DNA from: a virus
IMG/VR virus record: IMGVR_UViG_3300025584_000449
Span: 32,001-96,000 of that record
Reading direction: 5' to 3' (one strand)
DNA: 64,000 nucleotides
Shown here piece by piece: positions 2 to 47,347 of this stretch. Below the pieces are notes generated by a model. It made no database searches. It was not told where the DNA came from and saw nothing but the letters and a program-made list of their open reading frames with translations. Positions within the stretch are counted from its first letter, which is position 1, and each line of letters starts with the position of its first letter. Made by a program: the position numbers and the translations under genes.

Positions 2-3000
2 ACTGATGGAGCTAAAGGAGATAAGTTTGAAAAACCTATATTTGTAGGCCATCAATACTTTATGAAACTTCGTCACATTGTTAAGAAGAAAGCTGGAGAA
101 CATTCATTTGGTAATTATGATATTAATGAAACTCCTGTAGGAAAAGGTGCTCAAAAATTAGACCCTATGCTTTCTCATAGTTTACTAGCTCATGGAGCAA
201 AAGCTAATCTATATGAAATGAGTGCGTATAAGGGAAGAGCAAATGAAGAGTACTGGACTAACTTATCTCTAGGATTGCCCGCACCACCTCCATCAGATAA
301 TTTTGTATTTAATAAAATGATTAACTATATGAAGTCTGCTGGAGTTAATGTAAAAAAAGAGGGAAACAAGTTTAGAATATTTCCATTAACTGATACGCAA
401 GTTAAGGAATGGTCAACAGGTGAATTAAAAGATCCTGGCGCATTACTTGTTGGTAAAAATCTTGCAGAGCGTAAAGGTGGATTATTTGACAGAGAGATGA
501 CGGGTGGTTTACGGGGCGAGAAATGGTCTCACATAAAACTCATTAAAAAAATACCTAATCCTATGTATGAGTTAGCAATAACCAAGTTACTTGGGCTGAC
601 TGAGAATAAGTTTAATAAGATTCTAGATGGCTCTTTAGAGTTAGACGGAAAAACAGGCGTAGAAGCAATTCATGCGGCATTAAAAGGTATTGATGTTAAA
701 AAAGAGCTAAAGAAAACTAAAGCTGAATTAAAAGATGCCTCCGATAGTGCAGTTAATGGTTTAAATAAAAAAGCTAGATATTTAAAAGCTTTAAAAGATT
801 TAGACTATACTGCAGATGAGGCATACATGACTCAGTATTTGCCTGTACTACCTCCCATCTTTAGACCAGTGTATCCATTACCTAGCGGAGATCTGATGAA
901 GTCAGACCTCAATGAACACTATAGAGACATAGGAGTTATTAATAATAATTATAAAGCTATTAAAGATAAGCTAGGCAAAGAAGAACAGCTAGAGTACGAT
1001 CAATCTATTTATAAAGCTGTAAAAGCTTATCAAGGATTTATTGATCCTATATCTTTCTCTGGAAAGAAATATAAGGGAGTTATTAAAGAACTATCCGGCA
1101 CACAGGTTAAGCATGGATTAATCCATAGCTCTACGTGGTCGAAGAGGCAGGACTTGTCTGCGAGATCAACTATTACTGTTGAGCCTGATTTAGGTATTGA
1201 TGAAGTAGGTCTCCCGGAAACAATGGCTAAAGAAATATTTAAACCATTTATGATTCAAAAATTAGTTAGTCAAGGTATACCATCATTTAAAGCTAACGCA
1301 GAAGTGCAAGACTTTACTCCTACAGCTAGGCAAGCGCTAGTAGCAGTTATGGAAGAACGCCCGGTTCTTCTTAACAGAGCCCCTAGTCTTCATAAGCACG
1401 GTATACAGGCCTTTCGTCCCTTATTAATTAAGGGTAAGGCTATGCAATTAAACCCAATTATATTTTCTGGGTTTAACGCTGACCTTGATGGTGACACTAT
1501 GGCTGTTCATACACCTATAAGCCAAGAAGCTGTTACAGAGGCGTACGGATTACTGCCAAGCAAGATTATATTTAAACATGGTGATAATGGAGTAGTACCA
1601 GAAATTTCTCAAGAATATATTGTTGGTATGTATTTCTTAAGTAAATTAGGAAAAAATACCAAGAAGGAGTTTAGTTCAATAACAGAGGCTAAAGCAGCTA
1701 AACTACATCCTACTGACGTCTTCTTATTAAATGGTCAGAAAATGACTATAGGTCAGTTCGAGATTAATAAAGTATTACCTAAAGAATTAAAAGATTATTC
1801 TCGAGAGATGGATAAAAAAGCAATTAATAAAATATTTACAATTATAGGTAAGAAGTATAAAGCAGACTTCGCAAAGGTAGCAACAAGATTTAAAGAGTTA
1901 GGAAATCAGTATAGTCATAAACGTAGCTTCACTATTTCTATAACAGATTTTGCACAAGATAAATCTTATAGAGATAAAATTGTTAAAGAAGAAATGCCTA
2001 AAATTAAAAAACTAAAAGGTGATAAGCGTTCAGCAGCTATTCTAGCAATGACTGATAAAATTGAAAAAGCACAAGACAAAGTGTCAATAGGTAAAAATAA
2101 TATCTATGATATGTTAGATGCTGGTAGTATTTCTGGTGGTAAACGTGGCAGTGTTAGACAAATTTTATCTATGCCTGGGCTGTTAGCTAATGTAAAAGGT
2201 GTTCCTTTAAAAAATCCTGTATTAAAATCATATGGAGAGGGCATAGATACTAGTGCTTATTGGAACCATCTGTATGCTGTACGAAAAGGAACTGTTGACA
2301 GATCAGTTAATACGGCAGATTCTGGAGCATTAGACAAGGCTTTAATAGGAGTAACTAGAAGATTACTTATTACTACTGAGGATTGTAAAACAAATAAAGG
2401 TATCTATGTTGATGTAAATTCTAATGATATTTTAGATAGACACTTAGCTAGCTCTATAAAAGGCGTTGCTAAAAAGAATGATCTAGTTGATTCTGCGTTG
2501 CTACTTAAATTAAAATCTGCTGGATTAAAGAAAATAGAGGTAAGAAGCGCCCTTACTTGTGATGCTGCCAGTGGCGTATGTCAGCTATGCTATGGGTTAT
2601 TGCCTAATGGCCAACTTCCTAAAATTGGTGAGAATGTAGGCGTGTTGGAGTCCCAAGCCATTACTGAGAGAAGTACTCAGCTAACTATGAGAACTTTCCA
2701 CACTGGAGGAGCTGTAACCGCTGGAGGTGGTGGTGTCACAGAAGGATTCCCAAGGCTAGTTCAGTTATTAGAGGTGCCAAAGAAATTAAAGGGTAAGGCT
2801 ACGCTAAGTTCTGTAAAAGGAACTGTTAAAGCTATAACAAAAAACTTAGTTGGTGGGTATGACATTAGAATAGAAGGATACGGTACTGAAAATGATAAAA
2901 CGTTTACTATACCTTCTACAAGAAAGATAGTAGTTAAACTTGGAGATAGAGTTACTCCAGGAGATAGATTAACTGATGGAGCTATAAAACCTCAAGAGCT

Positions 3001-3433
3001 TGGAGACTACAAAGGGCACCTTGCTGCACAGCAGTATATAGTCGATGAGATAGATAAGATCTATGGCGGTGATTTCCATAAGAAAGGCATAGAGGTAGTA
3101 TTAAGAGGAGTGTCGGATAATGCTGAAATTATTAAAGCACCAGATAATAGTGGGTATTTAAGGGGAGATAAAGCTAGTATTTCATCTTTAGACGCATTAA
3201 ATAAAGATAGACGTAAAGAAGGCCTTGACACAATTAAGTATAAACCTTATTTTAAATCAATTGAGACTCTTAATGTAGATAGTGAAGACTGGTTAACACG
3301 ATTCTATACTAATAGAATTAAGTCAGCTATCCAAGAAGGAGCATCAAAAGCAGTGTATGGGGATATCGCAGGAAAAGATCCGATACCAGCATACGCTTAT
3401 GGTGACGAGTTTGGTAAGGGAGACTTTTACTAG
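2..3433 (+). CDS. rpoBC: Phage multisubunit RNA polymerase, RpoB C-terminus fused in frame to RpoC (5'-truncated by window edge)
   Basis: Frame is open from nt 2 (TDGAKGDKFEKPIFVGHQYFMKLRH..., matching RpoB [25 protein letters not shown]) and runs without a stop into RpoC motifs: LLNRAPSLH, FNADLDGD, QLTMRTFHTGG, C-x6-C-x2-C second Zn site. Confidence 0.93.
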   Translation, partial: TDGAKGDKFEKPIFVGHQYFMKLRHIVKKKAGEHSFGNYDINETPVGKGAQKLDPMLSHSLLAHGAKANLYEMSAYKGRANEEYWTNLSLGLPAPPPSDNFVFNKMINYMKSAGVNVKKEGNKFRIFPLTDTQVKEWSTGELKDPGALLVGKNLAERKGGLFDREMTGGLRGEKWSHIKLIKKIPNPMYELAITKLLGLTENKFNKILDGSLELDGKTGVEAIHAALKGIDVKKELKKTKAELKDASDSAVNGLNKKARYLKALKDLDYTADEAYMTQYLPVLPPIFRPVYPLPSGDLMKSDLNEHYRDIGVINNNYKAIKDKLGKEEQLEYDQSIYKAVKAYQGFIDPISFSGKKYKGVIKELSGTQVKHGLIHSSTWSKRQDLSARSTITVEPDLGIDEVGLPETMAKEIFKPFMIQKLVSQGIPSFKANAEVQDFTPTARQALVAVMEERPVLLNRAPSLHKHGIQAFRPLLIKGKAMQLNPIIFSGFNADLDGDTMAVHTPISQEAVTEAYGLLPSKIIFKHGDNGVVPEISQEYIVGMYFLSKLGKNTKKEFSSITEAKAAKLHPTDVFLLNGQKMTIGQFEINKVLPKELKDYSREMDKKAINKIFTIIGKKYKADFAKVATRFKELGNQYSHKRSFTISITDFAQDKSYRDKIVKEEMPKIKKLKGDKRSAAILAMTDKIEKAQDKVSIGKNNIYDMLDAGSISGGKRGSVRQILSMPGLLANVKGVPLKNPVLKSYGEGIDTSAYWNHLYAVRKGTVDRSVNTADSGALDKALIGVTRRLLITTEDCKTNKGIYVDVNSNDILDRHLASSIKGVAKKNDLVDSALLLKLKSAGLKKIEVRSALTCDAASGVCQLCYGLLPNGQLPKIGENVGVLESQAITERSTQLTMRTFHTGGAVTAGGGGVTEGFPRLVQLLEVPKKLKGKATLSSVKGTVKAITKNLVGGYDIRIEGYGTENDKTFTIPSTRKIVVKLGDRVTPGDRLTDGAIKPQELGDYKGHLAAQQYIVDEIDKIYGGDFHKKGIEVVLRGVSDNAEIIKAPDNSGYLRGDKASISSLDALNKDRRKEGLDTIKYKPYFKSIETLNVDSEDWLTRFYTNRIKSAIQEGASKAVYGDIAGKDPIPAYAYGDEFGKGDFY

Positions 3434-6263: not shown

Positions 6264-6270
6264 GAAAAAA

Positions 6271-6344
6271 TCTCCACACTGGTCAGCCGCTCGCTACCCA
6301 CCACGGATTTTCACCGTGCCTAAGCCTCGTCCGCTGTGTGGAGA
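6271..6344 (-). ncRNA. Unassigned 74-nt structured RNA candidate
   Basis: Closing stem TCTCCACAC/GTGTGGAGA; internal hairpin CACGG-TGAAAAT-CCGTG. Confidence 0.45.
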
Positions 6345-6347
6345 AGG

Positions 6348-6421: not shown

Positions 6422-6426
6422 ATAGG

Positions 6427-6498
6427 TTGGTGGATTAGGGATTGAACCTAAGATACAAGAGCCAAAGTCTTGTGTGTTACCAATTACACCATCCACCA
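6427..6498 (-). tRNA. tRNA-Gln(TTG)
   Basis: Arm CAAGA-CTTTGGC-TCTTG; U1-A72. Confidence 0.92.
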
Positions 6499-6532
6499 AA
6501 AAATGTGGGCAGGATAGCCTACCCACAAAGAT

Positions 6533-6589
6533 CTAATCTTTTAACCACCAGAAAAGATCGAGAATCTGAAGGATACAACAAATTTTCAT
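6533..6589 (-). CDS. 18-aa peptide MKICCILQILDLFWWLKD (not in ORF track)
   Basis: RBS GAGAGGAGG, downstream terminator GTGGGTAGG-ctat-CCTGCCCAC-ATTTTTT, paralog at 55331..55381. Confidence 0.75.
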   Translation of the reverse strand: MKICCILQILDLFWWLKD

Positions 6590-6635
6590 AAGTTGATTCC
6601 TCCTCTCAAATTACACAGTGTGCTACACCAGTGCA

Positions 6636-6716
6636 GGTGGAGGTGCAGGGTATCGAACCCTGGTCCTACTACAGTGCGCTTCGGCTTTGCAGTAGTCGAA
6701 CAGCCTTTTCACCCCC
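6636..6716 (-). ncRNA. ssrA: Mini-tmRNA: tRNA-like domain only, no mRNA-like domain
   Basis: GGGGGTG-AAAAGGCTG-TTCGAC ... GGAC-CAGGG-TTCGATA-CCCTG-CACCTCC-A-CC. G3:U70 pair; P2a TACTGC/GTAGTA closed by 16 nt. Confidence 0.82.
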
Positions 6717-6719
6717 AAA

Positions 6720-6811
6720 GTGGTTGTGAGTATAAACCTCTCTCGCTTATACTGTTCACAGTTTCGCCAGGCACTGAGAGTACGTTTGAACGCTCTCGTG
6801 AATACAACCAC
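6720..6811 (-). ncRNA. Unassigned 92-nt multibranch RNA candidate
   Basis: Stems GTGGTTGT/ACAACCAC, TTCAC/GTGAA, GAGAG..CTCTC, AGTATAAGC/GTTTATACT. Confidence 0.4.
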
Positions 6812-6815
6812 TAGG

Positions 6816-6888
6816 TGCGGAATGACGGACTTGAACCGCCGACACTCTGGATGTAACCCAGATGCTCTTCCAGCTGAGCTAATCCCGC
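6816..6888 (-). tRNA. tRNA-Val(TAC)
   Basis: Arm TCTGG-GTTACAT-CCAGA. Confidence 0.92.
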
Positions 6889-6890
6889 AA

Positions 6891-7487
6891 TTAATTAAAC
6901 ATTATTTCTATATGCTCTTTTGGCAATTCTTTTTTAATTGCTTGTGCTAATTCTCTAATTTCCCAAAGAGCAGCTTTGGACATTCTTAAACTTAAAAAGT
7001 TTCTTAAACTTCTAGCATTAATAGTCCATACAGCCTCAAACTTTAAAGACTCTGGTATTTTGTGTTTAAATCTGTCTGGAACTAACCCTTTACGTTTTAC
7101 GATCTCTATGAGATTTTTAACATATTCAAATTCTAATTGATCCAAATCAGGATCGGTGCTTACAAACTGCTCACTTAATTCTTCATCTGTAAGTTTACTT
7201 AATTTCTTTAAAGTATACCGAGTACTTCTTACAGAAGGAGAAGCGATTCTATGTCTCGCTAGCTCCTGCAATACTGCTCTACTAAATCCCTCAATCTTAA
7301 AAGTATATACTATATGCTCTATTACACTCTCATGATTTTTAGCTAAAATACTTTTTAATAGAGCCATATCGCGTGGTCCATTATTGTCACTTTTATCCAT
7401 TGAATCCCAGCAAGTTCTTGCTGCTAATACTGCTAAATCAATCGGACTATTATATAATAGTTCCACACGTTGTGTATTTTTACTCAT
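6891..7487 (-). CDS. thyX: Flavin-dependent thymidylate synthase
   Basis: HESVIEH and RHRIASPSVRSTRY ThyX motifs. Confidence 0.95.
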   Translation of the reverse strand: MSKNTQRVELLYNSPIDLAVLAARTCWDSMDKSDNNGPRDMALLKSILAKNHESVIEHIVYTFKIEGFSRAVLQELARHRIASPSVRSTRYTLKKLSKLTDEELSEQFVSTDPDLDQLEFEYVKNLIEIVKRKGLVPDRFKHKIPESLKFEAVWTINARSLRNFLSLRMSKAALWEIRELAQAIKKELPKEHIEIMFN

Positions 7488-7545
7488 TGTTTTCTTTCTG
7501 TTTAAGTACGCTCGGAAGGGATCGAACCTTCGACCACCTGATTAA

Positions 7546-8253
7546 CCTACCACACTGGCTTTCACCAGCCAAAGCTTTATTGCTTTGTTGTAGTCTGGAC
7601 CATCTCTTCACCATCAGCATTACCTGTTACGGTGGGTAACGTATGGCCTCTGAGGGCTTCCTCAAAGGATCTGTAGTTATCCATGTAGTGCACGTTTTTT
7701 TCCTGATTATTCTTTGTAGGAATAGTCCTAAAAGACATGGTCTTTCTTTTTCCTTTTGACAAAAGATACTTACTATTTATATAAGCTATTTTATCTTCCT
7801 CAAAAGCATATAGAGCAAAAATATCTATATCCCCATCATCGTAAATATACGAATAATTTGGACCAGATTTTTTCGTATCTATAGTTACCAGATCTTTATG
7901 TGCTTTTCGTGCCTTTACTTGGATTTTTACAGGTCTTTGACCAACTAGTGCAATTAAATCCACTCTTGAGTTGTCTCCATATTCTATAAATACGGGATAT
8001 CCTCTAGAAAGTAGATCTTTCATTATAACTAGCTCGCCCAAAGCGCCTTTTTCTTTTGAGTGTAGTTCCATATTAGTTTATCTCCTTTTCAACTAATATA
8101 GTACTACTCTAACGCTTTGTCAAGGGTTGCCTGCTGATTACCCATTACTATCTTGTAGATTTTCACTAAAGGATTAGTACCACAAGCTTTAGGGCGTTCC
8201 AGCATATAGTTACCTCCACTTTATAGATTTCTCTATAAAGGCTCCATTTCTTA
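7546..8253 (-). mobile_element. Group I intron (708 nt) between tRNA positions 34 and 35
   Basis: 5' end TAAGAAATGGAGCC with P2 CTTTATAGAGAAATCTATAAAG like cyanobacterial tRNA-Leu introns; P ATGCTGGAA, Q AATCAGCAGG, R CTCAGAGGCCATACG, S AAGAGATGGTCC; terminal G. Confidence 0.9.
7577..8071 (-). CDS. Intron-encoded PD-(D/E)xK homing endonuclease (I-Ssp6803I-like)
   Basis: KGALGE...GDNSRVDLI...KIQVK. Own TTGACA-17-TATATT promoter (8123..8095) inside the intron; 3' end overlaps R/S core elements. Confidence 0.85.
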   Translation of the reverse strand: MELHSKEKGALGELVIMKDLLSRGYPVFIEYGDNSRVDLIALVGQRPVKIQVKARKAHKDLVTIDTKKSGPNYSYIYDDGDIDIFALYAFEEDKIAYINSKYLLSKGKRKTMSFRTIPTKNNQEKNVHYMDNYRSFEEALRGHTLPTVTGNADGEEMVQTTTKQ

Positions 8254-8333
8254 AAGTCAGATGCTCTTCCAACTGAGCTACGAGCGCATAAGTGGATGGG
8301 GAGAACTCTCCCCACCCTTCTCTAAATCAACTA

Positions 8334-8824: not shown

Positions 8825-9167
8825 TATTATCCTTCTGAAAAAACAGTTCTAAATTACCGTCTTTATTTTCTTGAGCAAAAGCAAAGCGCCAACTTTCTTC
8901 ATATAGCTTATCTAACGCCCCAATAGTTATTTTTTTGGATGAGGTTAGTTCTATAGTTTTCCAATTATCGCTTTTCTTTTTTCTCTTTGCTTTCTTTTTA
9001 GCTGTCGGTATAACTGTTTTAGTTTCTTTTTTTACTTCTTTTTTTGCTGGTGTTTTAGCTTTTGCTTTAGTCACTTTTTTGACTGAGGTTCTGCTTTTTG
9101 CTTTGTCCTCAAGCGTAACACCTGCTGCAATTTCTGCCTTGGTTCGTCTTACTCTTTTTTGAGCCAT
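8811..9167 (-). CDS. Lys/Ala-rich basic protein, possibly nucleic-acid binding
   Basis: KAKAKTPAKKEVKK low-complexity tract. Confidence 0.65.
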   Translation of the reverse strand: MAQKRVRRTKAEIAAGVTLEDKAKSRTSVKKVTKAKAKTPAKKEVKKETKTVIPTAKKKAKRKKKSDNWKTIELTSSKKITIGALDKLYEESWRFAFAQENKDGNLELFFQKDNSVQK

Positions 9168-9784
9168 TATATTATCTCATCTATAAGTTCAAACTCTAAA
9201 CACTGCTCAGCAGTGAGATAAAAATCATGCTCCATTTTTCTTTTCCAATAAGCTATATCCTTATTAGAAAATTCTGCGAAAAGTTCATACAATCTATTTT
9301 GTAATTTTGTTAAATGTTTAACTTCATTGGTGATTGTAGAAACTTTCCCGCTATACCAAGAGCTTATTTGATGAATCATAGCATAGCTATCTTGACCCAT
9401 CGACCTTACCCCTGTGCCTGAAACTAATAGTACTGCTGCTGCAGACATTGCTGTTCCAAAACATCTTGTATTAATCAGGACTGGGGCTGTTCGAACAATA
9501 TCAACTAACCCGTAACACCCATATATATCTCCCCCATAAGAGGATATTTCTAGGGTGATGGGTTTCTTTTTATCAGCTTCATCAGATAATTGATTTATTA
9601 ATCTAATTATTTGTGAAAGCCAAATAGGTGATATAAGTTCAACATCATCAGTAAAGTATATTATTCTTTCTTTTGAATTAAAGGACCATTCGGTCTCGTA
9701 GAATAATAATTCTTTACGTTTTAGATCTAAATCAGATCCTTCTAAAATTTTTGGTTTTTTACTATTTTCTATAGAAGGATTCAT
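9167..9784 (-). CDS. clpP: ClpP-family protease
   Basis: SSYGGD, catalytic AMSAAA (S), MIHQ (H), DFYLTAEQC (D). Confidence 0.9.
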   Translation of the reverse strand: MNPSIENSKKPKILEGSDLDLKRKELLFYETEWSFNSKERIIYFTDDVELISPIWLSQIIRLINQLSDEADKKKPITLEISSYGGDIYGCYGLVDIVRTAPVLINTRCFGTAMSAAAVLLVSGTGVRSMGQDSYAMIHQISSWYSGKVSTITNEVKHLTKLQNRLYELFAEFSNKDIAYWKRKMEHDFYLTAEQCLEFELIDEII

Positions 9785-11786: not shown

Positions 11787-12815
11787 TTATATATCGGTTG
11801 GGTTTCCTGAAAAAATTATTTTGTTCTCTTTAATATTGTTATGTTCTAATAAAAAGTCAAGCACAAAACCTTTAAACACCTCAAAAGTTTCAAATACTTG
11901 TAATCTATTGTAAGCATGTAACTTAAATGTTCCTACTAGAATTAAAATATCAATCTTGTTGAAGATCACATTGTTAGTTCCAGTAGCTGTTATTGCATAG
12001 GATAGTTTATCTAGATCTAGCCATCCTATATGTCTCTGTCTACCAGTAGTTACTCCGATCTCATTTCCTTCTATACGAATTTTATCGAAGATTTCATCGT
12101 CAAGACCTTGTTCTCTGAATTGTTTAAATCCTGAATAAGTCTCGTACACTTTAGCACATCCATAGATATCTCTAAGACTTTGAGGAGCTACTCCAGCCGT
12201 GAAGGCAGAGCAGGGCAATACACTGCTTGAGGTTACATATGGGTAATCTCCATGGTCTATGTCTAGCCAGAACCCTTGAGCGCCTTCGAATAATATATTG
12301 ATGTCTCGAAAGCCATCCAATTTATTTAATACTTTTACCGGATCCACAGTAAAGTCTTTTAGTAACGGGTGTGTCTCTGCTCTGATGTTTGTTCTATGCA
12401 TTTTTCCAGCATAGCACGGGCCGTTGCCTTGAAGCGTGACTCCAATAGAGCTATCTTTTTTATCTTGTTTTAGATGTTTATCTTCTATTACGTGAGCATT
12501 CTTTGCAATAAATAATCTATTGCGAATGTCCATATCAGAGGCATTTTCAACTTCTTCAAGCTCTTCTAAGAATTTCTCTGGATTGACTACGCAACCCGGC
12601 CCTATTAAAGATTTGGTTGATGCTTTTACTGGAAAGGGAATAGAATGTGTTTGTATCTTTTTTCCATCTATATATGATGTATGTCCTGCATTATGTCCGC
12701 CGTTGAAGCGAACTACCCAATCATAATTAAATGTTTTTTGGAGAGATGTGCTCACCTTCCCTTTCCCTTCGTCGCCCAGCTGTAACCCCACCACAATGTC
12801 TGAATTCAAATTCAT
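11787..12815 (-). CDS. purA: Adenylosuccinate synthetase (short form)
   Basis: GDEGKG, GGHNAGHT, EGAQG, YPYVTSS, GVTTGR. Confidence 0.92.
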   Translation of the reverse strand: MNLNSDIVVGLQLGDEGKGKVSTSLQKTFNYDWVVRFNGGHNAGHTSYIDGKKIQTHSIPFPVKASTKSLIGPGCVVNPEKFLEELEEVENASDMDIRNRLFIAKNAHVIEDKHLKQDKKDSSIGVTLQGNGPCYAGKMHRTNIRAETHPLLKDFTVDPVKVLNKLDGFRDINILFEGAQGFWLDIDHGDYPYVTSSSVLPCSAFTAGVAPQSLRDIYGCAKVYETYSGFKQFREQGLDDEIFDKIRIEGNEIGVTTGRQRHIGWLDLDKLSYAITATGTNNVIFNKIDILILVGTFKLHAYNRLQVFETFEVFKGFVLDFLLEHNNIKENKIIFSGNPTDI

Positions 12816-18184: not shown

Positions 18185-18982
18185 TTAAACCCCACTTTTT
18201 ACTCTTCTGTTCTTTAGCATTTTGTCCCTGATCTTCATACCCTTAATAATGTTAGCTACGTTTTTTGTAATCACTTGACCATTGCCTTTATTAATCATAA
18301 AGTCAATTTTAGCATTCCCAATATCCTCATCTAACAGTTCGCTTACTAGCTTTCTGTTAGACAATGAATACCTGAGCCAACTTCTTATTCTTACTATCTG
18401 ACCTCTAACCGTATCCTCTGTGGTCTCGGCTATTTTTGCTACTTCAGCGCTGGTGTGTTTTTCATGTCCGTCAAGGCCATAAAGAAGACAAACTAAATCT
18501 TTTTCCCACGGCTCAAGCCAAAGAGTTAACATTTTATTTATTAGCTCTTGTTCTTCTTTAGTCTCGTATTGTATGTCTGAAGTATTACCTACAATAACAC
18601 TCGAATACTCTAAGAAATCATGTTTGTTCACAAAATTTTTCTGCAAAGCTTCAATAGAGAAAGTTCCAATAGGAAGTTGCTTTTTAATTCTAAATGTGTT
18701 AATGATAAAATGTTTAATTTTAACAGCACACCTAACATCAAAAGTAACTTCTTCTTCAGAAGAACCTTTCCACGTGTCAATTGCTTTTAATACTCCCAGT
18801 CTTCCTATTTGCTTAAGATCGTCTATATCGTGTGTTGGTATACAACGGTTAGGTTTGAGATACCTATCATATCTCTTAGCAAAATAGATAATGGCAGGTG
18901 TGGCTATTTTTAATATTTCTTCAATAGCTTTCTTATCTTTATTTTGAGCTTTAAAAATTATAGAGTCTTGAACATTTTCCAC
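18185..18982 (-). CDS. Sigma70-family RNA polymerase sigma factor
   Basis: Region 2 DDLKQIGRLGVLKAIDTW; region 4 LYGLDGHEKHTSAEVAK. Confidence 0.85.
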   Translation of the reverse strand: MENVQDSIIFKAQNKDKKAIEEILKIATPAIIYFAKRYDRYLKPNRCIPTHDIDDLKQIGRLGVLKAIDTWKGSSEEEVTFDVRCAVKIKHFIINTFRIKKQLPIGTFSIEALQKNFVNKHDFLEYSSVIVGNTSDIQYETKEEQELINKMLTLWLEPWEKDLVCLLYGLDGHEKHTSAEVAKIAETTEDTVRGQIVRIRSWLRYSLSNRKLVSELLDEDIGNAKIDFMINKGNGQVITKNVANIIKGMKIRDKMLKNRRVKSGV

Positions 18983-19011
18983 TAACTTCTCCTTAATAGT
19001 GAATGGGTATG

Positions 19012-19083
19012 TGGAGCTGAAGAGGATCGAACTCTTGACCGCCGGATTGCAAACCCGGTGCTCTACCGCTGAGCTACAGCCCC
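19012..19083 (-). tRNA. tRNA-Ala(TGC)
   Basis: GGGGCTG/CAGCTCC with G3:U70; loop TTTGCAA. Confidence 0.93.
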
Positions 19084-20287: not shown

Positions 20288-20324
20288 TTAAAAGTAAAGC
20301 CCTCCATAATTAGAGGGCTTTAAT

Positions 20325-28424: not shown

Positions 28425-29209
28425 GGTGTTTTAATCCTTAATAGGCTACCCCATGGGTTGCATATTTTTTGATAGTCACACCATTTACATAAGAACTGTG
28501 CATTCTTTTCAAACTCGTTAGACTCTATGGACCGAAGAATGGAAGACCACACATCATCCATTTTACGAATAGGGATATCCTTCGTAACTGTTTCATCATC
28601 CTCAATCATATACTGTTTGATGTTAACTCTAAAGGGAGGTTCTGATTGTTGCATGACTAGTATCTTAGATGTTGGCAGTTTATCCCATCCAGGCTTTTTT
28701 ACCAACGGTTTCTTTTGCAATACACTTTCATGCCACACAGACTCATACAGTTCGAGCTGATCTAAGTATTTCTTTGGATAGGGTTTCTTTCCAGTCTTTA
28801 TCTCTATGAGGTGTATGTTGCCATCAGCATCCATACCAACTATATCAATAAACCCTTTAATAATTAAACCAACAGGGGTAACAAAATTAAACTCTACTTC
28901 ATTCATTTGGAACTGAGCAATTGCGTTGTCATACACACTAGTGTCAGCTTCAGTCCACGCATGTTGTAGTTCTTGAAGTAAAGTTAGTGTTTCTATTCCA
29001 GCAGCTTTTTCAAATTCCTCTTCAGACATATATGGGTCATCTTGTAGCCACCCATGAAATGCATTACCAAGATGTAGGAAATAGCTTAGAGGAGCTTTCT
29101 CCACTGGTGTCTTCCATACTTTACGGTGAGCGAATTTGTGCGCACATGATTTATACTCCTTCATCGCACTAAAAGACATGTGCGGAGGAATGTTATTTAG
29201 ATTTGACAT
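28421..29209 (-). CDS. PD-(D/E)xK exonuclease (RecB/Cas4-like)
   Basis: SFSAMKEYKSC, GNAFH, KGFID, EIKTG, QLELY, CKWCDYQKIC. Confidence 0.85.
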   Translation of the reverse strand: MSNLNNIPPHMSFSAMKEYKSCAHKFAHRKVWKTPVEKAPLSYFLHLGNAFHGWLQDDPYMSEEEFEKAAGIETLTLLQELQHAWTEADTSVYDNAIAQFQMNEVEFNFVTPVGLIIKGFIDIVGMDADGNIHLIEIKTGKKPYPKKYLDQLELYESVWHESVLQKKPLVKKPGWDKLPTSKILVMQQSEPPFRVNIKQYMIEDDETVTKDIPIRKMDDVWSSILRSIESNEFEKNAQFLCKWCDYQKICNPWGSLLRIKTP

Positions 29210-41776: not shown

Positions 41777-43744
41777 ATGAATAATCACGAAATATATTTA
41801 GCCACAGTAACAAATGTTGATACAACATATGATACTGTTGTGCATGTACGATTGGATCATCAAGAGCATACTGAGCACCCTGTCAAGATACAGGTGCCAT
41901 CACCTATGCCCACTACTGATGATGGGGCAGTGTTCATGGGCATACCTCGTGTAGGACAACGAGTTATAGTTATGGACCTACATGGATTAGGTGATCAGTA
42001 TATTGCATTGAGTTATCTTAACTATGGATCAGACTATGGACAAGATGGTGGGGACCCTACTACGTTAGTTAAGCGTAGTGAGGGTGATATTTATTTTAGT
42101 ACTGGTGGATATTTAAAACCATCGTTCTTAATGAGAGCGAATGGTAATATTGTGCTACATGCTGATACTTGGAGTGAGATATCATTAGATAGTGCAACCA
42201 AACGAGTTGAACTCGTAGGTCGCAATCTCATGCTGAAAACTCCAGGTGTTACTGATTATAGAGAGTATTTGGAGATGCATCCTGATACTCATGAAAATTA
42301 TACAACAAATCATCAATATGTGAGTAGAACTAAAGAACTTAGCTCTACAATCGCTGATGATATGCAAAGATTAGAAGAAGATTCACACCGCGTTGCAGCG
42401 GCAGTACCTGGATTAGATCTATCTAACGAGATATATAATGATAAGGTAATCCAGCGTACTGGTTATTTAGTGGCTAATGGTGAGCGTACTGGCCACGTCT
42501 ATGAGCTAAGAACTCAACAAAGTCGTGCTGGAGATAAGAAAGACACCTTTGTTGAGCGGAAAATAGGGTTACAATCAGCTCATACTGGAGAGACCGCGAG
42601 TATTTTAGGTGATGGTGGTATAAAATACCCCTCAGGCGCTCTGTACGAGCTCAGAGTGAAAGATAAGCTTGGAACTAGTGGAACTAGTCCCCTCACGTAC
42701 TCCGAACGCTTAGGTAGACTAGATGATGATATTATTGATGGAACTACAGTTGAAAGCGTAAAAGGTGAGCTCTATAGCAAGAGACTGTTGTATGATGGAG
42801 ATTTCGACGTTGACAAAGGTCGTGGGTGGTCAAAATCCAGTGAAGAGGCTGCAAAACAAGTATGGGCCGAGAGTTATGGGCTATTAGAGGACAAATCGCT
42901 GTATCGTACACATATGGACTGTGTTACAGACGAAGAACACGTAAATTTGTCAGAAAAAGTGCTATGTTTTCCTGACAACACTGAAATATACAACAGATCC
43001 TTCCTTTGTGCCAAAGGTGAGGATAATGTTGTCATAAATAACAGTATTTACTGTTTCAATGAGATGAACGGTACTGTTACATCAAATACACTGCTTTATG
43101 AGCGTGGAGCCAGTGAGTGGGAGTTATATGAGGGCACAAACATAGAAACAGGCCATTCTTGGGAGTTTAGCCACAATTGGAACGACGAAGATGAGCAAGA
43201 TACTGTATATGAGAGCCATTTGCCTTATACAGAGGGTGTTTTATACAAGAGAGCTCTTGAATCGTCCTCTCAATCCTTGATTTTAGCTGAAACTGTGCAA
43301 AATGAGCAATATCAGCTGCATTTGACCGCTCCATTAGAGGATGAGACCATAGATCAGAGCTTACTGCTTACTAAAGAGTCAGTTAAGCTCTCAGATGGTA
43401 AGAATAGCCACTATTTACAATTCACAGAGGATGGCATTAAGCTATCTGATGGAACAAATGACAACTACATTGAGCTAAATAGCAATGGAATCACCATTTA
43501 TAACAATTCAACAGATGTAACAAATATTATGACATTTGGGTCTGAAGGTGTAAAGATTAATGATCATTTCTTAGCAACACACGAATTCGTGGATTTCTTC
43601 AACACATACAAGAGTAGCTTAGGATTAGGTAATACTGGTGGTCCAGTGCCCCTCCACCCTTCAAGCATGACCACATTTGTAACAGAATATAGTGATTCAG
43701 GCACTTCAAGTACTTATAAAACAGATAATTCACCTACAGGTTAA
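41777..43744 (+). CDS. Baseplate central spike-like protein (gp5/gpV/VgrG type)
   Basis: N-terminal OB-fold-like segment (LATVTNVD..GIPRVGQRVIV); C-terminal beta-helix-like repeats (IKLSDG..IELNSNGITI). Confidence 0.6.
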   Translation: MNNHEIYLATVTNVDTTYDTVVHVRLDHQEHTEHPVKIQVPSPMPTTDDGAVFMGIPRVGQRVIVMDLHGLGDQYIALSYLNYGSDYGQDGGDPTTLVKRSEGDIYFSTGGYLKPSFLMRANGNIVLHADTWSEISLDSATKRVELVGRNLMLKTPGVTDYREYLEMHPDTHENYTTNHQYVSRTKELSSTIADDMQRLEEDSHRVAAAVPGLDLSNEIYNDKVIQRTGYLVANGERTGHVYELRTQQSRAGDKKDTFVERKIGLQSAHTGETASILGDGGIKYPSGALYELRVKDKLGTSGTSPLTYSERLGRLDDDIIDGTTVESVKGELYSKRLLYDGDFDVDKGRGWSKSSEEAAKQVWAESYGLLEDKSLYRTHMDCVTDEEHVNLSEKVLCFPDNTEIYNRSFLCAKGEDNVVINNSIYCFNEMNGTVTSNTLLYERGASEWELYEGTNIETGHSWEFSHNWNDEDEQDTVYESHLPYTEGVLYKRALESSSQSLILAETVQNEQYQLHLTAPLEDETIDQSLLLTKESVKLSDGKNSHYLQFTEDGIKLSDGTNDNYIELNSNGITIYNNSTDVTNIMTFGSEGVKINDHFLATHEFVDFFNTYKSSLGLGNTGGPVPLHPSSMTTFVTEYSDSGTSSTYKTDNSPTG

Positions 43745-43754
43745 AGGATAAAGT

Positions 43755-44234
43755 ATGGCAGGGCTAGACTCAGGAGTATTAGCAACAGATATAATGGAAA
43801 GAGTTGTAGAAGAGATAATAGTGGGGACAGTGCTTGCTACAGGCACTGATTTGCGTGATATGTTTGATAATCCTAAGGGCAGCGCAGCGGAAAAAGAAGA
43901 ATCTAAAGAGACAGTAAGAGCTATAGTAAGAAATTTGAAAGCGGAATATGCTGTACTAGTTGGTATTATATCTGATGAAGTTGTTAAACATATTAAGGAA
44001 AACTTGCAGATTAACCTAGACTCTATGACAGGGGCTAGCGTTACTGCGTTTAACATGGATGATGTTTTACCCGGAGGAGCTACAGTAGGTGTTACTACTG
44101 GAGGTAAAGCAATTCAAAGCGGCTTTACTATTTTTAGCATAGGACAGGAAACCTCTGCTATGCATACAGTTGCGCCCGGTACAGTGAATGGTAACGTACC
44201 AGCTGCAGATGATACAGGAGTGTTTGACGAATAA
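43755..44234 (+). CDS. Putative baseplate-associated protein
   Basis: Operon position after the spike gene. Confidence 0.55.
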   Translation: MAGLDSGVLATDIMERVVEEIIVGTVLATGTDLRDMFDNPKGSAAEKEESKETVRAIVRNLKAEYAVLVGIISDEVVKHIKENLQINLDSMTGASVTAFNMDDVLPGGATVGVTTGGKAIQSGFTIFSIGQETSAMHTVAPGTVNGNVPAADDTGVFDE

Positions 44235-45352: not shown

Positions 45353-47347
45353 ATGAACAATCTATTCTTAGATAGGAAAGAGCTTGAAAAGAAAGCGTTT
45401 CGCTATTTAACAGAAGACCACACTAATTGGGTAAAAGAGATAATTACGGAGTTGTTAACAAACTTCCCTGAGTTTACAGACGTGGATTTAGGTGTTGAGT
45501 GGATACGTAAAGACTTCAATAAAGGAACAGCAGTAGGATTCGTCAATATACAAGGAATGGCTCAGGTCCCTGTTATAGTAGATAGCTATAATATGTATGA
45601 TCTTGATGTCATTATAGTGAATAACTCAACGTATCCGTTAACACACGATACAGTGTTAAAGTTATTTAAGAATCCGGCAGCATTTAAGACTTCCGGTAAA
45701 GGCACATCTTTAATTAAAGACCTTGATCTATTTGTACGTCCTGTTGTAGAGCCAGCCACAGCTGGTGAATCTAGCGTTAAGACTGCTAAATATGACTCTG
45801 TAATAGAGAAAATGGGTGGGTCGGTGCTAGGTAATGACTTACGAGACATTCTTTCGTCTATAGAGCCATATCTCAACGAATATATGGACAATGGACATGG
45901 CGATATCATTGAGAAGCTTAGCAGTATTGAGCCTATTGAGGAAACTGACTTTGCTAAAGACTTAATGCGTACTATGCCTATTGACAGACAGTACAAATAT
46001 GAAGATAGTAATGGTAACACTATATTAAAACAGGCTAATAGTAGGGTGAACTACACATATATGATAGAAGTTGACAGTCAAGAGGCTGATCTTAATGAGG
46101 ATATGACTGCAGAATCATTAAAAATAGCGGCCTCTTATTCTAGTCCAGACCTATATACATACTATATTGATAAAAGAGGCAAAGCTCAAAAAGCCTATAC
46201 TACTGTATTCAATAATGTAAATAAAAAGCGTGACATAAAGGTAATAGATAGAGAAACTTTCAAGACTATGAGAGTATCTTCTGGTATTAGAAATCCTAAG
46301 CGTAAAGCTGAATATTTAAAACGTAGAAATAAGTCAACTGAGAAAATTGCTAGTGTTAATGAATCTCCTAAAGTAATGAAACTAGTAAATGATCCTGGGT
46401 CTCTGTTCTTATATAAGAACGGAAGCTATTTATGCAGCGATGACACAAATTCTCTAGATATGGAGAAAGTTGCTAGCCTTGGATCACAGCAATGGACACC
46501 AGAAGGCACAATTCCTTCTATGGGCGATACAGGCTGTTGGGTATTTAGCGATAATAGTGCTTCTAAGCCGTTTGAGGTAGTAGGATTACATAAGGTTGCT
46601 GGTGTAGGCAACTTTGAGGTTGTAGGCTGGGATGGAATGAATAGACATACGTATTATCCTCTGCAAGGCATTAAGGATAATGACCTTATTGAGCATGATA
46701 AGTATAATGATTCGTCCTATGTACCAGGAAATACGAAATTCGTTAAATTGGCTACTAGAATTGAGAATAATGATCTGTCATTGATAAGAGAGCATATCAG
46801 TAATAAGGTAAGCAAGGATAGTGCCGGATTATACTCATTCCATGGAGCGGAATTTAGCAAATATAGCTCTAAAACTAGAGACTTGACCTTTGATGAGGCT
46901 ATGTGGACTGCGATACATTGTAATGTACCCAATGATCAATTAGAATCATTGGAAAGCTTAGAGAAAAGCGCTTCATTGGCGTTAGATGCTAAAGCTCCTA
47001 TGTCACTTCTTGATCTCGAGTATAAGATCCATTCGAAATATAAGGATCTGTACTCTGACATGAAAAATGACATCATGAAGGTGGCTGCTATGGGTGCGGT
47101 TCCTAGTATTGGGTCACCTAAGACCATAGATGCCGTATTAGGGCTTAGTCTACTCAATAAGAACAACATTACGAGTTACTTAGAGCTGATTCCTGCCTAT
47201 GAAGAGGTATTACAGTACTTAGCTAAGCTACTACTGGCTGTGCGTATGGGACTTAAGACGTTAGATGAGTATCAGGTAAAAGAGGCAATGTTGAACCTGA
47301 CTAAGGTGGTTGTAGGGCTAAAGAGCTTAGGTGCTGTAATGAAATAG
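45353..47347 (+). CDS. Large protein with multiple K-x-A motifs, putative virion structural/assembly protein
   Basis: EKKAF, VKTAK, LKIAA, EKIAS, EKVAS, HKVAG, VKLAT, EKSAS, MKVAA. Confidence 0.7.
   Translation: MNNLFLDRKELEKKAFRYLTEDHTNWVKEIITELLTNFPEFTDVDLGVEWIRKDFNKGTAVGFVNIQGMAQVPVIVDSYNMYDLDVIIVNNSTYPLTHDTVLKLFKNPAAFKTSGKGTSLIKDLDLFVRPVVEPATAGESSVKTAKYDSVIEKMGGSVLGNDLRDILSSIEPYLNEYMDNGHGDIIEKLSSIEPIEETDFAKDLMRTMPIDRQYKYEDSNGNTILKQANSRVNYTYMIEVDSQEADLNEDMTAESLKIAASYSSPDLYTYYIDKRGKAQKAYTTVFNNVNKKRDIKVIDRETFKTMRVSSGIRNPKRKAEYLKRRNKSTEKIASVNESPKVMKLVNDPGSLFLYKNGSYLCSDDTNSLDMEKVASLGSQQWTPEGTIPSMGDTGCWVFSDNSASKPFEVVGLHKVAGVGNFEVVGWDGMNRHTYYPLQGIKDNDLIEHDKYNDSSYVPGNTKFVKLATRIENNDLSLIREHISNKVSKDSAGLYSFHGAEFSKYSSKTRDLTFDEAMWTAIHCNVPNDQLESLESLEKSASLALDAKAPMSLLDLEYKIHSKYKDLYSDMKNDIMKVAAMGAVPSIGSPKTIDAVLGLSLLNKNNITSYLELIPAYEEVLQYLAKLLLAVRMGLKTLDEYQVKEAMLNLTKVVVGLKSLGAVMK

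What the first reader, a model, noticed from the sequence alone, without database searches (positions are those of the whole stretch)
6636..6716. 81-nt tmRNA reduced to its tRNA-like domain
All tmRNA TLD hallmarks are present in normal, non-permuted order: G3:U70 acceptor stem, A73, stemless D-loop ending TTCGAC, short GGAC linker and T-arm. Helix 2a is closed by only 16 nt, so there is no tag reading frame or pseudoknot. MLD-less tmRNAs are known to me mainly from jakobid and oomycete mitochondria. In a phage it could be alanylated and bind SmpB, and then either release stalled ribosomes without tagging proteins for degradation or sequester SmpB to disable host trans-translation (inference).
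Basis: partly seen in the sequence, partly recalled or inferred. Interest (0 to 1): 0.85.

Follow-up and report, generated by a model that had tools for sequence, protein, structure and literature searches.

The report
Phage tag-less mini-tmRNA gene
A large uncultured marine phage carries, inside its tRNA gene array, a real 82-base gene for only the tRNA-like end of the bacterial ribosome-rescue RNA (tmRNA). This type is already known from mycobacteriophage DS6A, is common in phages, and probably interferes with or short-cuts the host's rescue-and-tagging system.

Summary
Window 6635-6716 (minus strand) encodes an 82-nt RNA with every hallmark of a tmRNA tRNA-like domain (TLD) and nothing else. 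It has a 7-bp acceptor stem with G3:U70 and an A discriminator, a stemless D-loop, an 8-bp helix 2a capped by 14 nt, the GAC linker and a T-arm.

- **Scores:** Rfam tmRNA gives 51.3 bits (cut-off 47). My own mini-tmRNA model gives 63.5 bits, against 64.8 for the published DS6A RNA.
- **Not an assembly deletion:** contigs from other marine studies carry the identical short form.
- **A family, not a one-off:** an unbiased scan of IMG/VR found 112 distinct minis. G3:U70 is kept in 111 and A73 in all 112, and all variable stem pairs covary.
- **Own marine subfamily:** it has 36 further variants. The window's helix 2a differs from the nearest one at four consecutive pairs, all compensated.
- **Partners:** no phage SmpB, ArfB or Pth was found, so it must use host factors.
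- **Relatives:** some distant jumbo-phage relatives carry full-length tmRNAs, and one unrelated phage carries both forms.

The kind is already known (DS6A; Mao 2009, Hudson 2014), and this scan has found it before on other DNA. This is a new member of a known kind. Its function is inferred, not shown.

The parts
6635..6716 (-). Mini-tmRNA (TLD-only) gene, 82 nt including the U that follows the encoded A-CC 3' end
   Evidence: Rfam RF00023 gives 51.3 bits over model positions 1-374. Model R1 gives 63.5 bits. The predicted fold matches the expected architecture. The architecture pattern is expected 0.00 times by chance.
6710..6716 (-). Acceptor stem, 5' strand (RNA 1-7), including G3
   Evidence: It pairs 7 of 7 with window 6639-6645, with G3:U70. 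In the family, pairs 5-7 covary.
6696..6709 (-). Stemless D-loop analogue (RNA 8-21), with GG and the conserved UUCGA motif
   Evidence: Read directly from the sequence. It aligns to the D-loop positions of the R1 and Rfam consensus.
6666..6695 (-). Helix 2a (RNA 22-29 paired with 44-51) closed by a 14-nt cap (RNA 30-43) that holds a 2-bp mini-hairpin. It stands in place of the whole mRNA-like domain.
   Evidence: RNAfold. Helix 2a pairs covary across the family. Four consecutive pairs differ on both sides from the nearest relatives, and all stay paired.
6646..6665 (-). GAC linker (RNA 52-54) and T-arm (RNA 55-71)
   Evidence: T-arm pairs 1-2 covary in the family.
6636..6645 (-). Acceptor stem 3' strand (RNA 72-78, with U70), discriminator A (RNA 79) and CC (RNA 80-81)
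   Evidence: In the unbiased family set A73 is kept in 112 of 112 and G3:U70 in 111 of 112.
6814..6888 (-). tRNA-Val(UAC), the upstream neighbour in the same-strand tRNA array
   Evidence: ARAGORN and Rfam.
6717..6813 (-). 97-nt structured spacer between tRNA-Val and the mini-tmRNA. Its two ends pair in a 9-bp closing stem.
   Evidence: RNAfold gives -30.9 kcal/mol, z = -3.3. The sequence is unique in the genome.
6499..6634 (-). Downstream spacer holding an 18-codon ORF (6533-6589) with a strong ribosome-binding site, and a terminator-like hairpin (6504-6527) followed by a T run. It is the probable 3' end of the transcription unit.
6425..6498 (-). tRNA-Gln(UUG), the downstream neighbour

Best explanation
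**Identity (high confidence).** This is a functional gene for a tag-less mini-tmRNA. It keeps the tmRNA tRNA-like domain in normal 5'-to-3' order. The entire mRNA-like domain and all pseudoknots are replaced by a short cap on helix 2a.

**Mechanism (inferred).**
1. The RNA is transcribed with the phage's minus-strand tRNA array.
2. It is trimmed by the host tRNA-processing enzymes, and its CCA end is completed like those of the phage tRNAs.
3. Host alanyl-tRNA synthetase charges it through G3:U70 and A73.
4. It binds host SmpB and EF-Tu. The phage encodes no SmpB.
5. As a charged TLD-SmpB complex it enters ribosomes stalled on broken mRNAs, in competition with the host's full-length tmRNA.
6. 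It has no resume codon or tag frame. The nascent chain therefore receives alanine (possibly several) instead of the ssrA degradation tag.
7. Final release depends on host back-up factors.

The net effect during infection would be that ribosome stalling is handled without ssrA tagging, which weakens host trans-translation.
For: **Shown here**
- The architecture and scores are those of a tmRNA TLD.
- The published DS6A TLD-only RNA scores the same with a model built only from metagenomic minis: 64.8 against 63.5 bits. The phage's own tRNA-Ala scores 32.9 bits.
- Identical short-form contigs occur in other marine studies: X7 covers 6590-6828 and X5 covers 6633-7093, each with 0 differences and no joint.
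- There is family-wide selection on structure. In alignment A4, 98.5% of cells are paired. The covariation score is 0.66, against 0.13 in shuffles (0 of 500 reach it) and 0.05-0.09 in slid controls.
- A scan that did not constrain the acceptor stem or discriminator gave 112 distinct minis. G1:C72 is kept in 112, G3:U70 in 111 and A73 in 112, while pair 4:69 takes five pair types. A G:U pair could be 'improved' by a single transition. Its retention argues that charging by AlaRS is under selection.
- The window's helix 2a differs from the nearest of 36 marine subfamily variants at four consecutive pairs, all compensated.
- No SmpB, RF-1/ArfB or Pth is encoded in this record. No SmpB or RF-1/ArfB was found in 39 other mini-bearing records. 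The RNA must therefore work with host proteins.
- Its 3' end (A-CC-T) matches 14 of the phage's 21 tRNAs.

**From the literature**
- A laboratory TLD fragment with SmpB supports template-free polyalanine synthesis in vitro (Shimizu and Ueda 2006, as reviewed in PMC3929946).
- A DS6A-like TLD-only RNA strongly inhibits tmRNA in E. coli (Mao 2009, as cited in PMC4131195 and PMC11915505).
Against: - There are no expression, processing, charging or SmpB-binding data for this RNA.
- The host is unknown.
- No close relative of this phage was found, so conservation at this exact locus could not be tested.
- Three distant relatives carry full-length tmRNAs instead, so a recent deletion cannot be excluded from this lineage alone.
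[quoted passage not shown] Charging is therefore not needed for at least one effect.
- Its Rfam score (51.3 bits) is lower than that of any of the 39 other minis scored the same way (54.6-81 bits).
- The phage encodes no release factor, so how a ribosome carrying peptidyl-Ala-mini-tmRNA is finally freed is unexplained.
Confidence: 0.55

Rival explanations
1. It is a passive SmpB sponge. The RNA only binds and titrates host SmpB, and so shuts down trans-translation. It does not need to be charged or to enter the ribosome.
For: Hudson et al. [quoted passage not shown] The D-loop motif, the linker and helix 2a are all intact; established SmpB-TLD structures place the SmpB contacts there. No phage SmpB is encoded that could offset titration.
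Against: G3:U70 is kept in 111 of 112 minis and A73 in 112 of 112, in a scan that did not impose them, while neighbouring acceptor pairs vary freely. A pure sponge has no need for alanine identity, for a 3' CC(A) end, or for a perfect 12-bp acceptor/T stack.
Confidence: 0.2
2. It is a decaying remnant. A full-length phage tmRNA lost its mRNA-like domain by deletion, and the leftover has no function.
For: Three distant jumbo-phage relatives, linked by a shared 421-aa protein at 38-45% identity, carry full-length tmRNAs of 352-432 nt. This copy has the lowest Rfam score among the minis scored.
Against: All stems are perfect and all identity elements are intact. Four compensated changes in helix 2a relative to the nearest variants show selection after divergence. 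The same design of about 80 nt recurs in more than 110 distinct phage sequences with covariation. One complete phage keeps a mini beside a full-length paralogue. The sequence is identical in samples from other studies.
Confidence: 0.07
3. It is a tRNA-like RNA whose role does not involve trans-translation. Examples would be a decoy for a host nuclease or defence system that targets tRNA or tmRNA, or a handle for another alanine-dependent process.
For: It sits in a tRNA array, and phage tRNA arrays are thought to counter host tRNA depletion.
Against: The conserved features are exactly those specific to the tmRNA TLD and absent from tRNAs: the stemless D-loop motif, the linker and helix 2a. The only experimental data on this class concern tmRNA inhibition (PMC4131195).
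Confidence: 0.1
4. It is an aberrant decoding tRNA-Ala, or a phage attachment-site fragment of the host tmRNA gene.
For: It has the alanine acceptor identity, and temperate phages often carry the 3' end of ssrA at attP.
Against: There is no D-arm and no 7-nt anticodon loop. ARAGORN makes no tRNA call. The phage already has a normal tRNA-Ala(UGC) at 19011-19083. Both halves of the TLD are present and joined by a closed helix, which an att fragment would not have.
Confidence: 0.02

Closest known systems
TLD-only ('Standard, no CDS') tmRNA of mycobacteriophage DS6A (tmRNA Website tmID 11587; Mao et al. 2009 RNA Biol 6:355; Hudson, Lau and Williams 2014, PMC4131195; tmRNA database 2025, PMC11915505)
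   Same: Both are phage-borne, non-permuted, about 82 nt, with the TLD closed by helix 2a plus a small cap and with no tag frame or pseudoknots. I located the DS6A RNA at JN698994 28478-28560. It scores 64.8 bits with my model, against 63.5 for the window.
   Different: DS6A is a 60-kb temperate siphovirus of Mycobacterium with high G+C, and its RNA stands alone after the lysis/structural block. The window's phage is a roughly 180-200-kb marine jumbo phage of about 37% G+C, and the gene sits inside a 21-tRNA array. Apart from the conserved TLD core the two sequences are unrelated. DS6A has a GCAC linker and a slightly different T-arm.
Bacterial one-piece tmRNA (Rfam RF00023), and full-length tmRNAs of jumbo phages
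   Same: They share the same TLD: the G3:U70 acceptor, A73, the stemless D-loop, helix 2a, the linker and the T-arm. The window passes the family's gathering score. Distant relatives of this phage carry full-length versions.
   Different: The window's RNA lacks the resume codon, the tag reading frame, the stop codon and pseudoknots PK1-PK4. Some 270-350 nt are replaced by 14 nt.
Laboratory TLD fragments used for SmpB co-crystals and in vitro trans-translation (reviewed in PMC3929946)
   Same: Both consist of the 5' and 3' TLD strands joined by a short loop. Such fragments bind SmpB, enter the ribosome with EF-Tu and accept the peptide. With SmpB they support template-free polyalanine synthesis.
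   Different: Those fragments are engineered from bacterial tmRNAs. The window's RNA is a natural gene that keeps a longer helix 2a and an A-rich internal loop with a mini-hairpin.
CDS-less tmRNAs of jakobid and oomycete mitochondria and of some plastids (Rfam RF02544; Jacob et al. 2004; PMC11915505)
   Same: These are also tmRNA homologues with no tag frame. They are presumed still to work with SmpB.
   Different: They are organellar, mostly circularly permuted two-piece genes, AT-rich and divergent. The window's RNA is non-permuted and close to the bacterial TLD consensus.

Membership tests
tmRNA (Rfam RF00023) | Family covariance model score at or above the curated gathering score | tested here: met
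   51.3 bits against 47, over model positions 1-374.
tmRNA (Rfam RF00023) | Alanine identity: G3:U70 in a 7-bp acceptor stem, with an A73 discriminator | tested here: met
   Read from the sequence and the fold.
tmRNA (Rfam RF00023) | tRNA-like domain without a D stem: GG plus the UUCGAC-type D-loop, helix 2a, the GGAC-type linker and a T-arm with a canonical T-loop | tested here: met
tmRNA (Rfam RF00023) | mRNA-like domain with a resume codon, a tag reading frame and a stop codon | tested here: not met
   Only 14 nt lie between the strands of helix 2a. ARAGORN finds no tag. There is no second tmRNA piece elsewhere in the 179.9-kb record.
tmRNA (Rfam RF00023) | Pseudoknots PK1-PK4 | tested here: not met
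   There is no sequence available to form them.
tmRNA (Rfam RF00023) | Alanylation by AlaRS, and binding of SmpB and EF-Tu | not testable with these tools
   The determinants are present, but biochemistry is needed.
Phage TLD-only mini-tmRNA (DS6A type) | A non-permuted TLD of about 60-100 nt, closed by helix 2a and a short cap, with no tag frame | tested here: met
Phage TLD-only mini-tmRNA (DS6A type) | A score comparable to the published member with a model of the class | tested here: met
   With R1 the window scores 63.5 bits, DS6A 64.8 bits and the 51 other family members 47.6-93 bits.
Phage TLD-only mini-tmRNA (DS6A type) | Carried by a phage genome | tested here: met
   It lies in an IMG/VR virus record of 179,902 bp, estimated 89% complete. 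The record encodes a phage RNA polymerase beta'-like protein, HNH endonucleases and 21 tRNAs.
Phage TLD-only mini-tmRNA (DS6A type) | Inhibits host trans-translation | not testable with these tools
   This is reported for a DS6A-like RNA in E. coli (PMC4131195, PMC11915505). It has not been tested for this RNA.
tRNA-Ala | A cloverleaf with a D-arm and an anticodon arm carrying a 7-nt loop | tested here: not met
   ARAGORN makes no call. The fold has no D stem and no anticodon loop. The phage's genuine tRNA-Ala scores only 32.9 bits with R1.
Permuted two-piece tmRNA (RF04321) | The 3' TLD half precedes the 5' half in the gene | tested here: not met
   The gene is in standard order. The RF04321 match reaches only 19.5 bits and covers only the 3' half.

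The most novel reading that the evidence does not exclude
Mini-tmRNAs may be a widespread, essentially phage-specific class of charged ribosome-rescue modulators. With host SmpB and EF-Tu they would enter stalled ribosomes and add template-free alanine or oligo-alanine tails in place of the ssrA tag. This would be a phage-run counterpart of bacterial RQC alanine-tailing. It would let the phage free ribosomes, or redirect the fate of truncated proteins, after it has degraded host mRNA. The near-absolute conservation of alanine identity and the in vitro polyalanine activity of TLD-SmpB (PMC3929946) are compatible with this reading. So is the coexistence of a mini and a full-length tmRNA in one phage.
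Probability: 0.15. Interest if true: 0.8.

Novelty: new member of a known kind. Interest (0 to 1): 0.45.

Why it matters
Trans-translation is the main bacterial ribosome-rescue system and is also an antibiotic target. A small natural RNA that phages use to tap or block it is a ready-made tool and a clue to what limits phage translation.

This case adds three things to the single published example:
- The mini form occurs in a marine jumbo phage, inside a tRNA array.
- It belongs to an abundant marine subfamily (36 further variants) and to a family of more than 110 distinct phage sequences.
- Alanine identity is conserved without exception across that family. This argues for an active, charged role rather than a passive SmpB sponge, and a single G3:C70 mutant would test the point.

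The practical lesson for annotation is that ARAGORN misses these genes. Rfam 15 finds most of them but missed DS6A and one other.

Tried and rejected
- **Close relatives not found.** BLAST of the locus and of the element against the INPHARED phages gave no match. An exact 31-mer of the 3' half found nothing in IMG/VR, because of one T-loop base.
- **No shared context with other minis.** None of the first 64 mini-bearing contigs is a relative of this phage at the protein level.
- **No mini at the same locus in distant relatives.** Nineteen loci related through the neighbouring 421-aa protein have no mini within 8 kb.
- **No RNA run.** No RNA holder was listed among the public runs that hold this stretch, so expression could not be examined.
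- **Cultured phages.** A consensus-like mini used as a BLAST query hit only 3' halves. On inspection these belong to permuted full-length tmRNAs in Bordetella phage PHB04 and Tunturiibacter phage Tunturi_4, not to minis.
- **Conserved neighbour genes.** One subgroup of related phages shares small genes of unknown function, a GP88-like protein and an RNase H-like protein. Nothing there relates to translation, and none of these is in the window.
- **ORFs overlapping the element.** The ORFs at 6593-6814 (+), 6623-6811 (-) and 6720-6950 (+) match no protein family and are taken as spurious.
- **Control in bacterial genomes.** The loose architecture pattern mostly hit 3' parts of ordinary tmRNAs there. 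Only 7 of 119 loci had a full 7-bp acceptor stem, about nine looked like true minis, and only 28 of 119 reached 6 of 7 pairs. In IMG/VR, 112 of 119 distinct sequences reached 6 of 7.
- **Host.** Host identity could not be inferred with the tools at hand.
- **Mao et al. 2009.** The paper is not held in the library. Its result is cited only through PMC4131195 and PMC11915505.

Full report
**1. The observation**

The minus strand of window 6635-6716 reads, 5' to 3', as follows:
- a 7-nt acceptor strand starting with five G;
- a 14-nt stemless D-loop that contains GG and ends in the UUCGA motif;
- an 8-bp helix whose strands are separated by only 14 nt;
- a GAC linker;
- a 5-bp T-stem with a 7-nt T-loop;
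- the complementary 7-nt acceptor strand, giving G3:U70;
- an A discriminator, then CC, then U.

RNAfold returns exactly this structure as both the minimum-energy and the centroid fold (-32 kcal/mol, z = -2.9).

Rfam's tmRNA model RF00023 matches the 82 nt from its first to its last model position at 51.3 bits, above the curated 47. A strict pattern for the architecture matches once in the window and never in 100 shuffles. ARAGORN, which requires a tag peptide, does not call the gene.

**2. Not an assembly artefact**

The stretch is present in marine metagenome runs from four studies. Short contigs assembled independently from two other studies cover the whole element and its flanks without a single difference. 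X7 covers 6590-6828 and X5 covers 6633-7093. A third study covers 6667-7001. No joint, insertion or deletion is seen at the element. No RNA run holds the stretch, so expression could not be examined.

**3. Genomic setting**

- The window is bases 32001-96000 of a 179,902-bp IMG/VR virus record, estimated 89% complete, with about 37% G+C.
- The window encodes an RNA polymerase beta'-like protein, a PurA/PurZ-family enzyme, ThyX, a ClpP homologue, a sigma-like factor, a DNA ligase and several homing endonucleases.
- The nearest cultured phages are Vibrio jumbo phages, at 28% protein identity.
- All 21 tRNA genes of the record lie in the window on the minus strand.
- The mini-tmRNA sits between tRNA-Val (6814-6888) and tRNA-Gln (6425-6498).
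- Its encoded 3' end, A-CC followed by T, is the same as in 14 of the 21 tRNAs. It therefore looks built for the same processing and CCA completion.
- The 97-nt upstream spacer and the 136-nt downstream spacer both fold unusually stably (z = -3.3 and -4.8).
- The downstream spacer contains an 18-codon ORF with a strong ribosome-binding site, and a terminator-like hairpin that abuts tRNA-Gln.
- The record holds no second tmRNA piece and no full-length tmRNA. It encodes no SmpB, no RF-1/ArfB-type factor and no peptidyl-tRNA hydrolase.

**4. It belongs to a large family**

A degenerate pattern for the whole architecture found 64 IMG/VR contigs with 54 distinct sequences of 71-98 nt. Of these, 51 had a perfect 7-bp acceptor stem. 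I counted pairs at positions anchored by the invariant motifs, so no alignment was needed. The variable acceptor pairs (5-7), T-arm pairs 1-2 and the first five pairs of helix 2a each take four to six pair types while staying 84-100% paired.

I built a covariance model (R1) from 15 of these sequences. The resulting 53-sequence alignment shows:
- 98.5% of cells paired;
- 232 cells changed on both sides;
- a covariation score of 0.66, against 0.13 for shuffles (0 of 500 reach it) and 0.05-0.09 for slid controls.

That first pattern imposed the alanine identity elements. Among 112 distinct sequences with at least 6 of 7 acceptor pairs:
- G1:C72 is kept in 112;
- G2:C71 in 111;
- G3:U70 in 111;
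- A73 in 112;
- pair 4:69 takes five types;
- CCA is encoded in only 47.

About 18 of 50 loci have tRNA genes beside the mini.

In 39 of the larger mini-bearing records, none encodes SmpB or an RF-1 domain protein. Rfam finds all 39 minis above its cut-off. Only one record, a complete 123.6-kb phage, also has a full-length tmRNA. There the two genes share the T-arm and differ in the acceptor stem by compensated changes, so they are paralogues kept side by side.

The same loose pattern in bacterial and archaeal genomes mostly hits 3' parts of ordinary tmRNAs. Only about nine of 119 loci there are true minis. The form therefore looks mainly phage-borne, although both scans were truncated.

**5. 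The window's own lineage**

No close relative of this phage was found.

Nineteen distant relatives were reached through the neighbouring 421-aa protein, at 37-51% identity. None has a mini near that gene. Three large ones (207, 252 and 424 kb) carry full-length tmRNAs of 352-432 nt. One has a clear tag called by ARAGORN. Their TLDs are not especially similar to the window's.

A metagenome scan for the window's TLD core found 62 marine contigs with 36 distinct minis. They share its exact acceptor stem and T-arm, apart from one T-loop base. The nearest is 85% identical. Against these relatives the window's helix 2a differs at four consecutive pairs on both strands, and all four remain paired. 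That is direct evidence for selection on the helix in the lineage leading to this copy, and it argues against a recently broken gene. The flanks of those contigs are unrelated to the window.

**6. What is known**

Phage TLD-only tmRNA is already published. Hudson, Lau and Williams list 'Mycobacterium phage DS6A (TLD only)'. [quoted passage not shown] 2009 (PMC4131195).

The 2025 tmRNA database paper counts 9 'Standard, no CDS' sequences and 79 phage tmRNAs, and repeats the DS6A result (PMC11915505). I could not read Mao et al. itself.

With model R1, which contains no DS6A sequence, I located the DS6A RNA at 28478-28560 of JN698994. It is unannotated there and scores 64.8 bits, the same as the window's 63.5. 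Rfam at its gathering threshold missed DS6A and one of 13 metagenomic minis.

A review of in vitro work states that SmpB with a TLD fragment supports polyalanine synthesis without template mRNA. It also notes that TLD fragments were used for the SmpB and ribosome crystal structures (PMC3929946).

This scan has reported the same class on other DNA several times.

**7. How it most likely works**

*Shown:* the gene's structure, its family membership, selection on its stems and on alanine identity, and the absence of phage-encoded partners.

*Inferred:*
- co-transcription and processing with the tRNAs;
- alanylation by host AlaRS;
- binding of host SmpB and EF-Tu;
- entry into the empty A site of ribosomes stalled on non-stop mRNA, in competition with host tmRNA.

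With no resume codon, the ribosome cannot switch template. The nascent chain would gain one or more alanines but no ssrA degron. Release would depend on host ArfA, ArfB or drop-off.

I prefer this 'charged competitor' reading to a passive SmpB sponge. A sponge does not need G3:U70, A73 or a CC(A) end, yet these are the most conserved positions in the family.

Whether the benefit to the phage is protection of proteins from tagging, faster ribosome recycling after host mRNA breakdown, or disabling a host process cannot be decided here. Some phages carry full-length tmRNAs, and one cultured phage has a tmRNA next to an ArfB-like gene. This shows that phages often gain from more rescue rather than less. 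It keeps the productive tag-less rescue variant alive.

**8. Verdict**

It is a new member of a known kind. The kind is more common and more strongly constrained than the literature I could find suggests, but the idea itself is published, and this scan has met it before. Interest is moderate.

Noticed in passing
window 6533-6589 (-) and 55331-55381 (-): There are two paralogous micropeptide genes of 18 and 16 codons. Their last ten residues are identical although six of those ten codons differ synonymously. Each has a strong ribosome-binding site and is followed by a terminator-like hairpin. The first lies 46 nt downstream of the mini-tmRNA.
   Followed up: partly
window 9167-9784 (-): A ClpP protease homologue (Pfam CLP_protease, E = 1e-28) lies 2.5 kb upstream of the mini-tmRNA on the same strand, among nucleotide-metabolism genes. 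ClpXP is the protease that degrades ssrA-tagged proteins. Whether that link means anything here is unknown.
   Followed up: no
window 11787-12815 (-) and 6891-7487 (-): There is a PurA/PurZ-family adenylosuccinate-synthetase-like gene (phrog_1211, E = 5e-59) and a ThyX gene. A PurZ would imply 2-aminoadenine in the phage DNA. I did not examine this.
   Followed up: no
window 62-3433 (+) and 18185-18982 (-): A 1123-aa protein resembles the RNA polymerase beta' subunit. Its nearest phage matches are Vibrio jumbo phages D69, D181 and D148, at 28% identity. There is also a sigma-factor-like protein. The phage probably has its own transcription apparatus.
   Followed up: partly
window 7507-8287, ORF 7577-8071 (-): A PD-(D/E)XK endonuclease ORF (Pfam PDDEXK_5, E = 2e-18) lies here. 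ARAGORN finds no tRNA-Lys or tRNA-Trp in the genome, and Rfam at gathering threshold called no intron there. I did not test the intron claim.
   Followed up: no
window 6264-6345, 6499-6634, 6717-6813, 20288-20324: The short spacers of the tRNA array all fold very stably, at -0.32 to -0.48 kcal/mol per nt. The two spacers flanking the mini-tmRNA have z-scores of -3.3 and -4.8 and are unique in the genome. They may be processing signals or small RNAs.
   Followed up: partly
window tRNA genes (whole array): Fourteen of the 21 phage tRNA genes end with the discriminator, CC, then T. Only three encode a full CCA. The mini-tmRNA follows the majority pattern.
   Followed up: yes
L193 (Tunturiibacter phage Tunturi_4, PP885687.1 about 43532-43941) and L192 (Bordetella phage PHB04, MF663786.1 about 46100-46341): Both cultured phages carry unannotated permuted (two-piece) tmRNA genes, scoring 79 and 104 bits with RF04321. 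In Tunturi_4 the gene starts just after gp53, which is annotated as an RF-1-domain (ArfB-like) release factor. Two ribosome-rescue functions therefore sit side by side in a phage.
   Followed up: partly
G046 (IMGVR_UViG_3300025362_000004) 46486-46567 and 77588-77979: A complete 123.6-kb phage carries both a mini-tmRNA and a 392-nt full-length tmRNA. They share the same T-arm, and their acceptor stems differ by compensated changes.
   Followed up: partly
L019 5398-5503 and L020 5224-5296: An EGFOA RNA (61.6 bits) lies 184 nt downstream of one mini-tmRNA. A Pistol ribozyme (42 bits) lies about 2 kb from another.
   Followed up: no
L021 5905-6228 and L055 10275-10670: ARAGORN calls long tmRNAs with implausible tag peptides that merely share the 3' end of an 82-83-nt mini-tmRNA. 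These are probably false extensions.
   Followed up: no
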